Assembly (NCBI RefSeq): GCF_009914755.1
Contig: NC_060935.1
Source: the human T2T-CHM13v2.0 reference genome, Homo sapiens
DNA: 64,000 bases
Strand: one strand, 5' to 3'
Shown: positions 27,289 through 31,058 of the stretch, piece by piece
Position numbering within the stretch: position 1 is the first letter of the stretch
How the letters are laid out: every line of letters begins with the position of its first letter
Notes under the pieces: model-generated
Databases searched by the model: none
Seen by the model: the letters and a program-made list of their open reading frames with translations, nothing else
Told to the model about the DNA's origin: nothing
Program-made: the position numbers and the translations under genes

Positions 27289-27346
<58 letters not shown>

Positions 27347-29094: not shown

Positions 29095-31058
29095 GTTTTC
29101 TTTTTACTTTCTAACTTTTATTTTAGTTTCAAGGGGTACGGGTGCAGGTTTGTTATCCTGGTAAATTACATGTCATGGATGTTTGGTGTACAGACAATTT
29201 TGTCACCCAGATAATCAGCATAATATTTGATACGTAATGTTTTAATCCTTACCCTCCTCCTACCTTCCACCATAAAATAGGCCCCAGTGTCTACTGTTCC
29301 CTTCTTTATGTCCATGTGTAGTCAGTGTTTAGATCCCACTTACACATGAGAACATGTGGTATTTGGTTTTCTGTTCCTGAATTAATTTGCTTACGATAAT
29401 GGCCTCCAGCTCCATCCATGTTGCTGCGAAGAACATATCATTTATTATGGCTGTGTAGTATTTTGTGGTGTGTAATACCAAATTTTTAAAATCCAGTCCA
29501 CCATTAATGGACATCTAGGTTGATTCGATATCTCTGCTATTGTGAATAGTGCTACAATAAACATATGCACGTGTGTGTCTTTATGGTAGAACAATTCACA
29601 TTCCTTTGGGTATATAATCAGTAGTGGGATATCTGGGTCGAATGGTAGTTCCATTTTACATTATTTGAGAAAGCTTCAGACTGCTTTTCACAGTGCTGAA
29701 CTAATTTACATTCCCACCAGCTGTGTGTAAGTGTTCCCTTTTCTCCACAACCTTGTCAGCATTTGTTACTTTCTTTTTAATAACAGCTATTTTGACTGGT
29801 GTGAGATGGTATCACATTGTCGTTTTGATTTGCGATTCCCTAATGATTAGTGATATTTAGCACTTTTTCATATGTTTGTTTGTCACATGTATGCCTTCTT
29901 TTGAAAAGTGTCTGTTTATGTCCTTTGCCCACTTTTTAAATGGGATTTTTTGTTTGTTTGTTTGGTTGTCAATTTAAGTTTCTTATAGATTCTGGATATT
30001 AGACCTTTGTTGGATACATAGTTTGTGAATATTTTCTCCCTTTCTATAGGCTGTCTGTTTACACTGTTGACAGTTTCTTTTGCTTGTGCAGAAACTCTTT
30101 GACTTAATTAGGTCTTGCTTGTCAATATTTGTTTTTTTGTTTTTTTTTTTTTTTTTTTTTTTTGGCCTTTTGGCTAAGATCAAGTGTAGTATCTACTCTT
30201 ATCAGTTTGTTGTAATTGCTTTTGGAATCTTCATCACGAAGTCTTTGCCCAGGTTGATGTCAAAAATGTTATTTCCTAGGTTTTCTTCTTGGATTTGTAT
30301 AGTTTGAGGTTTTATATTTAAGTCTTTAATCCATATCTGAGTTGATTTTTTATATTCTGAAATGTAGGGGTCTAGTTTTAATCTTCTGCATATGGCTAGC
30401 CAGTTATCCCAGCACCATTTATTGAACAGTCCTTTCCTTATTCCTTATTATTTTTGGCTTTGTTGAGATCAGGTGATTCTAGGTGTGTGGCTTTATTTCT
30501 GGTTTCTCTAACCTATTCCATTTGCTTATGTGTCTGTTTTTTGTATCAGTAGCACATTGTTTTAGTTACTATTGCCTTGTTGTATAGTTTGAGTCAGGTA
30601 ATGTGATGCCTCCAGCTTTGTTCTTTTTACTTAGAATTGCTTTGGCCATTTGAGCTCTTTTTTGGTTCCAAATACATTTTAGAATTTTTTTCTAATTCTG
30701 TGAAAAATGTCACTTGTAGCTTGATAGGAATTGCACTGAATCTGTAAATAGCTTTGGGCAGTATGGTCATTTTAACAATATTATTCTTTCTATCCATGAG
30801 CATGGAATGCCTTAGCATTCATTTGTGTAGTCTCTGATTACTTTCAGTAGCATTTTGCAATTCTTATTGTAAAGATCTTTCACCTCCCTGGTTAGCTGTA
30901 TTTCTAGGTATTTTATTTTTTTGTGGCTATTGTGAATGGCACTGCATTCTTAGTTTGGCTGTCAACTTAGATGTCATTGGTGTTTAGAAATGCTACTGAT
31001 TTTTGCACATTGATTTTGTATCCTGAAAGTGCTGAAGTTGTTTACCAGATCTAGTAGC
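29095..31058 (-). mobile_element. L1PA13-15-age 3' fragment (about 2 kb), host of the U2 insertion
   Basis: 3'UTR 'ggggtacgggtgcaggtttgttat..ggtaaattacatgtcatggatgtttggtgtacaga' and degenerate ORF2 peptides at 29445-29654 and 30627-30818. Confidence 0.9.
30164..30208 (+). pseudogene. U2 snRNA fragment (nt 11-55) retrocopy
   Basis: GGCCTTTTGGCTAAGATCAAGTGTAGTATCTacTCTTATCAGTTT is 43/45 identical to U2 as I recall it and includes the branch-point pairing sequence GTAGTA; preceded by T24. Confidence 0.92.

What the first reader, a model, noticed from the sequence alone, without database searches (positions are those of the whole stretch)
30128..30215. U2 snRNA fragment with its poly(A) on the opposite strand
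Seen: inside an old L1, the host TTTGTT appears duplicated around T24 + U2 nt 11-55 (sense on +). The A-tail is therefore on the minus strand, antisense to U2, and U2's terminal TTT overlaps the right TSD as microhomology. Established: ordinary U2 retrocopies are 5' pieces that are either tailless or carry a sense 3' A-tail. Inference: one nick primed on a poly(A) RNA while the other primed on U2 U53-55. This is the same geometry as the tRNA capture 21 kb away, which hints at a general inverted small-RNA capture route. Alternative: a tailless U2 copy whose first 10 nt were lost to expansion of the T-run.
Basis: partly seen in the sequence, partly recalled or inferred. Interest (0 to 1): 0.7.

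Follow-up and report, generated by a model that had tools for sequence, protein, structure and literature searches.

The report
Inverted U2 fragment beside a poly(T) run
A 45-base piece of U2 snRNA sits next to a run of 24 T's inside an old L1 element, most likely a small by-product of L1 reverse transcription starting from both ends of one DNA break, a process already described for other small RNAs.

Summary
The core observation holds. Window 30164-30208 (+) is U2 snRNA nt 11-55 (43 of 45 identical to an RNU2 gene copy), directly preceded by T24, inside an L1 whose sense strand is the minus strand. The claimed TTTGTT target-site duplication is wrong as drawn: in 12 of 12 related L1 copies the two hexamer positions lie side by side, so both belong to L1. 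A 6-bp duplication is still possible with a different left copy (30136-30141).

Best reading (about 0.5): a twin-priming insertion. The + strand end primed on a poly(A) tail. The minus strand end primed on U2 at U53-55. Only the tail of the poly(A) partner survives.

This kind is already published (Doucet 2015; Law and Burns 2026). I also found a full-partner analogue: T23, antisense Alu, then U2 1-41 inside a 38-bp direct repeat.

Genome-wide, only 3 of about 510 U2-like places carry a T10 run just upstream, which is what chance adjacency predicts. All three lack U2 nt 1-10. In-place conversion of the pyrimidine-rich U2 5' end into a T-run is not excluded. Primate orthologues could not be examined. 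The "tRNA capture 21 kb away" could not be verified. Interest is low to moderate.

The parts
29930..30133 (-). Host L1 (ORF2 region), left flank of the insertion as seen on +
   Evidence: 82-88% identity to the 39 scored genomic L1 copies. Aligned to 12 copies up to 30133.
30128..30133 (+).
   Evidence: 12 of 12 L1 copies have this hexamer position directly followed by the second one.
30136..30141 (+). Alternative left copy of a 6-bp duplication (TTTGTT). Under this parse it is the native second L1 hexamer, with two extra T's at 30134-30135
   Evidence: Read from the sequence against the L1 alignment. Inference, not shown.
30140..30163 (-). Pure T24 on + (A24 on minus). Read as the cDNA of a poly(A) tail; T22 if 30140-30141 belong to the duplication
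   Evidence: Absent from 12 of 12 related L1 copies.
30164..30208 (+). U2 snRNA nt 11-55, sense on +, 43 of 45 identical to the RNU2 gene. Nt 9-10 may be hidden in the T-run (C10 is a CpG C)
   Evidence: The CTACTCT variant occurs once in the genome.
30206..30211 (+). Right TTTGTT: native L1 hexamer or right copy of the duplication. Its first three T's coincide with U2 nt 53-55 (3-nt microhomology)
30206..30444 (-). Host L1 continuing to the right of the insertion. 30202-30444 minus encodes ORF2p residues 929-1004

Best explanation
This is a single L1-driven insertion of the twin-priming type into an older L1. Shown: a 66-72 bp block (T22-24 plus U2 nt 11-52/55) interrupts L1 sequence that is continuous in related copies. 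The T-run abuts the left flank, and the 3'-truncated U2 abuts the right flank with a TTT overlap. Inferred: the + strand was nicked, or broken, after the T-rich ...TTTGTT. That 3' end primed on a poly(A) tail and made the T-run. The minus-strand 3' end ...AACAAA paired with U53-55 of a U2 RNA and was extended towards the U2 5' end. The two cDNAs were then joined near U2 nt 9-11. The join may have used pairing of the oligo(dT) end with the purine tract that is the complement of U2 nt 5-10. The poly(A) partner (L1, Alu, mRNA or an adenylated U2) is reduced to its tail. The product is inert, with no function expected.
For: (1) The block is absent from 12 of 12 related L1 copies, and no L1 bases are lost. 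(2) The tail is antisense to U2 and touches the left flank; the U2 3' end at nt 55 shares TTT with the right flank. Kojima 2010 (passages) reports microhomology at all but 4.6% of 5' junctions of inverted L1, with about 70% of them 2-5 bp long. (3) Read in the poly(A) orientation the site is A-rich (AC/AACAAA), so the nicked + strand ends TTTGTT/GT. Read in the U2 orientation it is TT/TTTGTT, with no A's. Doucet 2015 (section 6) saw the same asymmetry in 7 inverted snRNA chimeras, including one U2/L1. (4) A full-partner analogue exists: L105 is T23, then antisense Alu, then U2 1-41 sense, inside a 38-bp exact direct repeat. (5) Ordinary copies differ: 81 of 100 sampled U2 copies start at nt 1-2. 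In this locus 6 of 10 positions differ from U2 in nt 1-10 against 2 of 45 in nt 11-55 (Fisher p 1.8e-4). (6) No other genomic copy carries the CTACTCT variant, so no antisense source locus is seen. (7) A short duplication fits an extremely 5'-truncated poly(A) copy: Kojima 2010 found short duplications enriched in 5'-truncated L1.
Against: (1) No body of a poly(A) partner survives, so the T-run is only presumed to be a tail. (2) The duplication is at most 6 bp and needs two unexplained extra T's; the other parse has none and leaves an unexplained G at 30139. (3) The cleavage site is not the canonical TTTT/AA. (4) Only 3 loci genome-wide have T10 within 22 nt upstream of the U2 core. Chance adjacency alone predicts about 3.2 of 510. 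(5) The two sibling loci, on chrX and chr5, end at the common nt 36 and have 12-13 bp duplications starting AA, which is the U2-first geometry. chrX reads GGGA-T10-CTT-GGCC, which could be U2 A1 and C8-T9 around a converted T2-T7. (6) C-to-T changes are frequent in the U2 5' end: C3 37, C5 12, C8 8, C10 33 of 100. (7) Orthologues could not be examined.
Confidence: 0.5

Rival explanations
1. An ordinary tailless U2 retrocopy (nt 1 or 2 to 55) whose pyrimidine-rich first ten bases were converted to T's by C-to-T changes and then expanded by replication slippage. G 30139 would then be U2 G4.
For: U2 nt 2-10 are pyrimidines except G4. C3 and C10 are CpG C's, changed to T in 37 and 33 of 100 copies; C5 is changed in 12 and C8 in 8. 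L127 shows nt 5-10 as CTTTTT. L051 is a U2 1-55 copy with a duplication starting TTT. The chrX locus looks like an intermediate. The window holds a pure A51 at 27290-27340, so long homopolymer runs occur here.
Against: It needs C5, C8 and C10 all changed (product of sample frequencies about 0.003), plus C3 and A1. That gives about 1e-4 per copy, or 0.05 loci in 510. It also needs growth from T6 to T24 while nt 11-55 changed at only 2 of 45. It would leave a duplication of 2-3 bp only. The target is not A-rich in the U2 orientation, unlike the published tailless consensus TT/WAAAA (Noll 2015).
Confidence: 0.22
2. Two separate events at one spot: a T-run (a tail-only insertion, or growth of the L1's own T-rich tract) and a 5'-truncated tailless U2 copy that landed beside it.
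For: L050 is a U2 11-57 copy with its own 10-bp duplication and no T-run, so a 5' end at nt 11 occurs by itself. The number of T-run-adjacent U2 loci equals the chance expectation.
Against: All 3 T-run loci lack U2 nt 1-10, against 5 of 98 other sampled loci (Fisher p 3.4e-4; chrX comes from outside the sample). In chr5 and chrX the T-run lies inside the duplication. The native L1 tract offers only two T's as a seed at the junction. No second duplication is visible.
Confidence: 0.1
3. A 5'-truncated retrocopy of a polyadenylated transcript that ran antisense through a U2 gene or pseudogene and ended opposite U2 nt 11.
For: The three T-run loci share one end near U2 nt 8-12 and differ at the other end (nt 55, 36, 36). 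That is the pattern of a fixed 3' end with variable 5' truncation.
Against: There is no AATAAA or ATTAAA in the 45 antisense bases before the tail. No other genomic copy has this locus's variant. In chrX, GGGA lies between the duplication and the T-run, and the target is not T-rich on that strand.
Confidence: 0.05
4. DNA-templated patch repair of a break (microhomology-mediated copying from RNU2 DNA), without reverse transcription.
For: A short or absent duplication and microhomology at the right junction.
Against: It does not explain the T24. The 3' end at nt 55 falls in a common class of RNA-derived U2 copies: 3 of 100 end at nt 55 and 8 at nt 57.
Confidence: 0.04

Closest known systems
Inverted snRNA/L1 chimeras formed by twin priming (Doucet et al. 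2015, Mol Biol Evol, PMC4476161; section 6 read)
   Same: A 3'-truncated snRNA lies in inverse orientation to a poly(A)-bearing retrocopy. The snRNA and the target are complementary at the junction. The cleavage site fits better when read in the poly(A) orientation. One U2/L1 case is reported there.
   Different: No L1, SVA or Alu body lies between tail and snRNA; the partner is a bare T22-24. The duplication is at most 6 bp. U2 lacks its first 8-10 nt.
Antisense tRNA-half, 5S and U5 / LINE-1 chimeric insertions (Law and Burns 2026, Cell Genomics, PMC13174262; passages read)
   Same: A 5' fragment of a small RNA oriented opposite to the poly(A) partner, attributed to reverse transcription from both ends of the break.
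   Different: Those were found through an adjacent LINE-1 segment, so tail-only cases would not be caught. Their supplementary tables were not opened here.
Tailless retropseudogenes of U2 (Noll et al. 2015, Genome Biol Evol, PMC5322556; passages read; my sample of 100 loci)
   Same: A U2 5' fragment, 3'-truncated, with no sense A-tail, primed internally through microhomology.
   Different: Those are 5'-complete (81 of 100 start at nt 1-2 in my sample), have 8-35 nt duplications and a TT/WAAAA target. This copy meets none of the three.
L105, C3:143114980 (minus strand) in this genome: inverted Alu/U2 chimera
   Same: The order T-run, antisense poly(A) RNA, sense U2 5' fragment inside one direct repeat.
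   Different: There the partner is a nearly full Alu, U2 starts at nt 1, and the direct repeat is 38 bp.

Membership tests
U2 snRNA-derived sequence (Rfam RF00004) | Sequence and structure match to the U2 model at or above the gathering score | tested here: not met
   42.8 bits against a gathering score of 46, and no gathering-level match in the window. It is a fragment: nt 11-55 match an RNU2 gene at 43 of 45. U2 origin is secure; it is not a U2 gene.
Tailless U2 retropseudogene (Noll 2015) | 5' end complete (within 5 nt of U2 nt 1) | tested here: not met
   Homology starts at nt 11 (nt 9 at best).
Tailless U2 retropseudogene (Noll 2015) | 3' truncation with no sense A-tail | tested here: met
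   Ends at nt 52-55 and is followed by L1 sequence.
Tailless U2 retropseudogene (Noll 2015) | Target-site duplication of 8-35 nt and a TT/WAAAA target in the U2 orientation | tested here: not met
   At most 6 bp. The site reads TT/TTTGTT in the U2 orientation.
Twin-priming inverted snRNA chimera (Doucet 2015) | 3'-truncated snRNA in opposite orientation to a poly(A)-bearing partner | tested here: met
   U2 ends at nt 55. A24 lies on the opposite strand and touches the fragment. The partner is a tail only.
Twin-priming inverted snRNA chimera (Doucet 2015) | Both parts enclosed by one target-site duplication | tested here: inconclusive
A 6-bp pair (30136-41 and 30206-11) is possible but needs two extra T's.
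Twin-priming inverted snRNA chimera (Doucet 2015) | L1 endonuclease motif when read in the poly(A) orientation, but not in the snRNA orientation | tested here: inconclusive
   AC/AACAAA (nicked strand TTTGTT/GT) against TT/TTTGTT. Closer in the poly(A) orientation, but not the canonical TTTT/AA.
Twin-priming inverted snRNA chimera (Doucet 2015) | Complementarity between snRNA and target at the snRNA junction | tested here: met
   TTTGTT begins with the TTT of U2 nt 53-55.
Twin-priming inverted snRNA chimera (Doucet 2015) | Single event: both parts arrive together (empty orthologous site) | not testable with these tools
   No primate genomes are held, and the genome search has no relatives.

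The most novel reading that the evidence does not exclude
'Tail-only twin priming' may be a recurrent outcome. While one DNA end copies a U2 RNA, the other end copies only the poly(A) tail held by ORF2p. The oligo(dT) product then pairs with the purine tract complementary to U2 nt 5-10. That would explain why all three T-run loci in the genome join U2 at nt 8-12. Such copies would be a footprint of ORF2p-poly(A) engagement at the second DNA end. Catalogues that look for an adjacent LINE or SINE body would miss them.
Probability: 0.3. Interest if true: 0.4.

Novelty: new member of a known kind. Interest (0 to 1): 0.25.

Why it matters
It matters little for this locus, which is an inert 70-bp scar inside a dead L1 in an olfactory-receptor pseudogene cluster. 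Its value is as a worked example of two things. First, a hexamer pair that looks like a target-site duplication can be native repeat sequence. Second, inverted small-RNA captures are an already described product of twin priming. If tail-only versions are real and recurrent, they would extend the published catalogues, which require a LINE or SINE body next to the small RNA. They would also give a simple read-out of reverse transcription starting at both ends of a break.

Tried and rejected
(1) A source copy: the 22-mer carrying the CTACTCT variant occurs only at this locus, so no parent pseudogene or paralogue exists.

(2) A segmental duplicate of the locus to serve as a pseudo-orthologue: only the self match covers the full query.

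(3) Primate orthologues: no tool holds them.

(5) The tRNA neighbour: ARAGORN, Rfam and simple T-loop motif scans found nothing. A tRNA half may escape all of them.

(6) A full list of all 510 U2-like places: only the first 100 are listed. The survey therefore covers C1-C15 exact-core hits only. It contains three pairs with identical flanks (L086/L087, L090/L124, L133/L134), so about 97 loci are independent.

(7) The pattern tool's own control, the reversed pattern, gave 0 hits but is uninformative, because the reversed U2 core does not occur. I used T-run density instead.

(8) L127 and L101 were considered as further inverted chimeras. In L127 the T26 lies outside the U2 duplication, so I rejected it. 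L101 (T17, 164 nt, then U2 1-55) has no clear duplication and is left open.

(9) Literature searches for 'U2 pseudogene' with 'poly T' and for 'tailless' with 'twin priming' listed no paper on tail-only inverted U2 copies. This rests on those two searches only.

Full report
WHAT IS THERE

On the + strand the sequence reads ...TTGTCAATATTTGTT TTTTTG T24 GGCC...CAGTTT GTTGTAATTGC.... The stretch 30164-30208 equals nt 11-55 of a U2 gene copy taken from the RNU2 array of the same genome (L010). It matches at 43 of 45 positions; the two differences are adjacent transitions at nt 42-43. Rfam's U2 model finds it at 42.8 bits, E 1.2e-6 in a 2.5-kb scan. That is below the gathering score of 46, as expected for a fragment. 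It is the only snRNA match in the window at E<=0.01. The T-run 30140-30163 is a pure T24.

The host is an old L1. The left flank is 82-88% identical to the 39 scored genomic copies (40 scored matches counting the window's own locus, of 4650 candidates). The minus strand of 30202-30444 encodes ORF2p residues 929-1004 (E about 6e-30 to PDB 8uw3, 3e-30 to the best chain). L1 sense is therefore the minus strand. The U2 piece is antisense to its host, and the A-tail (A24 on minus) points the same way as the host L1.

THE CLAIMED TARGET-SITE DUPLICATION

I aligned 12 related L1 copies across the site.
- They read exactly TTTGTT in 7 of 12 (left) and 8 of 12 (right).
- Both hexamers are therefore native L1, and the pair is not a duplication.

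Two parses remain.
- Parse A: the insert is 30134-30205 (TTTTTG, T24, U2 11-52). There is no duplication, and the G at 30139 is unexplained.
- Parse B: the L1 runs on to 30141, so that TTTGTT at 30136-30141 is the native second hexamer with two extra T's before it. The insert is then T22 plus U2, and 30206-30211 is a 6-bp duplicate.

Either way no L1 bases are lost. The T-run touches the left flank. U2 nt 53-55 (TTT) coincide with the first bases of the right flank.

WHAT ORDINARY U2 COPIES LOOK LIKE

An 18-nt U2 core with at most one mismatch occurs at 510 places in the genome. I fetched the first 100 listed (C1-C15, exact core, own locus included) and aligned them to U2.
- 81 of 100 start at nt 1-2.
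- 33 end exactly at nt 36, 8 at nt 57, and 7 at nt 186-188.
- 40 of 100 have an exact flanking repeat of 8 nt or more.
- Three pairs share flanks (L086/L087, L090/L124, L133/L134), so about 97 loci are independent.

This is the published picture of tailless retropseudogenes: 5'-complete, 3'-truncated, internally primed, with a TT/WAAAA target (Noll 2015, passages). The present copy departs from it in three ways. It has no nt 1-10, at most a 6-bp duplication, and no A-rich target in the U2 orientation.

IS POLY(T) UPSTREAM OF U2 A CLASS?

A T10 within 0-22 nt upstream of an exact 15-nt U2 core occurs at only three loci: this one, chrX 17,686,782-817 (minus strand) and chr5 106,078,892-932 (plus strand).

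From the density of T10 or A10 runs in the other sampled loci (one per 5 kb per strand), chance adjacency predicts about 3.2 of 510. The count alone therefore shows no route.

The three loci are not plain adjacency, however. All three lack U2 nt 1-10, against 5 of 98 other sampled loci (Fisher p 3.4e-4; chrX comes from outside the sample). In chr5 and chrX the T-run lies inside the duplication.

Those two siblings have the ordinary U2-first geometry: a 3' end at nt 36 and 12-13 bp duplications beginning AA.
- chrX reads GGGA-T10-CTT-GGCC. This could be U2 A1 and C8-T9 around a converted and expanded T2-T7.
- chr5 reads T10-A-T5-AT-GCC.

They therefore fit twin priming only if the order of the two primings is reversed. 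They give some support to in-place conversion instead.

A FULL-PARTNER ANALOGUE

In the same sample, L105 (C3:143,114,980, minus strand) is T23, an antisense Alu running to about its nt 8, then U2 nt 1-41 in sense. All of it lies inside a 38-bp exact direct repeat. The order T-run, antisense poly(A) RNA, sense U2 fragment within one duplication therefore exists in this genome with an intact partner. The window's locus looks like the same thing with the partner cut down to its tail.

WHAT IS IN PRINT

- Doucet et al. [quoted passage not shown] Seven were 3'-truncated U1, U2, U5 or U6 pieces in inverse orientation to a 5'-truncated L1 or SVA. Where described, they lie between one pair of duplications. 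The endonuclease motif appeared only in the L1 orientation, and the snRNA was complementary to the target at the junction. They assigned these to twin priming.
- Law and Burns 2026 (passages) report tRNA halves, 5S and U5 (80%) antisense to LINE-1 and reach the same conclusion.
- Kojima 2010 (passages) found that only 4.6% of 5'-inverted L1 insertions lack microhomology at the 5' junction, that about 70% show 2-5 bp, and that short duplications go with 5'-truncated L1.

Two searches listed no paper on tail-only inverted U2 copies.

MECHANISM, BEST READING (ABOUT 0.5)

Shown: the block is an insertion into continuous L1. The tail is antisense to U2 and abuts the left flank. The U2 3' end shares TTT with the right flank.

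Inferred:
1. The + strand 3' end ...TTTGTT, T-rich as an L1 endonuclease product would be, primed on a poly(A) tail.
2. The minus strand 3' end ...AACAAA paired with U53-55 and was extended on U2 RNA.
3. The two cDNAs were joined near nt 9-11.

Because C10 is a CpG C that is T in 33 of 100 copies, U2 may in fact be retained from nt 9. A possible reason for the junction position is pairing of the oligo(dT) end with the purine tract complementary to U2 nt 5-10. This is my inference and is untested. From memory, not from any call, G11 and G12 of human U2 are 2'-O-methylated and might also stall the enzyme. L050, a U2 11-57 copy with a 10-bp duplication and no T-run, shows that a 5' end at nt 11 also arises without a T-run.

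RIVALS

- In-place conversion of U2 nt 1-10 to T's followed by slippage (0.22). It is favoured by the pyrimidine-rich 5' end, the CpG sites and the chrX locus. It is disfavoured by the joint probability of the needed changes, about 1e-4 per copy from the sample frequencies. It is also disfavoured by the contrast of 6 of 10 against 2 of 45 changed positions within the locus (p 1.8e-4), by the 2-3 bp duplication it leaves, and by the non-A-rich target.
- Two separate events (0.10).
- A retrocopy of an antisense polyadenylated transcript (0.05). There is no poly(A) signal in the 45 nt and no source copy.
- DNA-templated patch repair (0.04).

WHAT I COULD NOT DO

- No primate orthologues were available, so I could not test whether the two parts arrived together.
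- No population data on T-run length were available.
- The supplementary tables of the two chimera papers were not opened.
- The 'tRNA capture 21 kb away' could not be found with ARAGORN, Rfam or motif scans. This does not exclude a tRNA half.

VERDICT

The locus is a new member, tail-only, of a known kind. It has low to moderate interest.

Noticed in passing
L105 = G000 C3:143114680-143115600 (U2 on the minus strand): T23, then a nearly full antisense Alu, then U2 nt 1-41 in sense, then 16 nt, all enclosed by a 38-bp exact direct repeat. This is an inverted Alu/U2 chimera. Kojima 2010 found only one 5'-inverted Alu among human- and chimpanzee-specific insertions.
   Followed up: partly
L043/L024 = G000 C23:17686782-17686817 (minus strand): U2 nt 11-36 (exact) preceded by GGGA-T10-CTT, inside a 12-bp duplication AA[T/C]T[C/A]GGTTGAG within another L1. 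The T-run replaces U2 nt 2-7 in a copy with ordinary geometry. Its origin is unexplained.
   Followed up: partly
L026/L115 = G000 C5:106078892-106078935 (plus strand): U2 nt 12-36 (exact) preceded by T10-A-T5-AT, inside a 12-13 bp duplication (AGAATGTATTT(T)AT), about 65 bp downstream of an Alu tail.
   Followed up: partly
Survey loci L044-L143: 33 of 100 U2 copies end exactly at nt 36 (...GTGTAG), usually followed by a duplication starting with A's. This is a very sharp preferred 3' end next to the branch-site-pairing region of U2. 8 of 100 end at nt 57.
   Followed up: partly
L050 = G000 C9:108030974-108031591: U2 nt 11-57 at 100% identity with a 10-bp duplication (ATAC[A/T]AGTTA) and no T-run. 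This is a second copy whose 5' end is exactly nt 11.
   Followed up: no
window 27290-27340: A pure A51 flanked by what looks like sense-strand L1 ORF2 sequence. The orientation is judged from memory of L1 and was not tested. Whether it is an expansion of an A-rich L1 tract or a tail-only insertion was not checked.
   Followed up: no
L101 = G000 C3:81562631-81563248: T17, then 164 nt of non-repeat sequence, then U2 nt 1-55. This may be an inverted mRNA-3'-end/U2 chimera, but no clear duplication was seen.
   Followed up: no
L090 (C1:218839741) and L124 (C6:66464893): Two U2-like copies (nt 1-93, 74% identity) on different chromosomes share the same flanks. This suggests a U2 fragment carried inside a larger dispersed repeat or duplication.
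   Followed up: no
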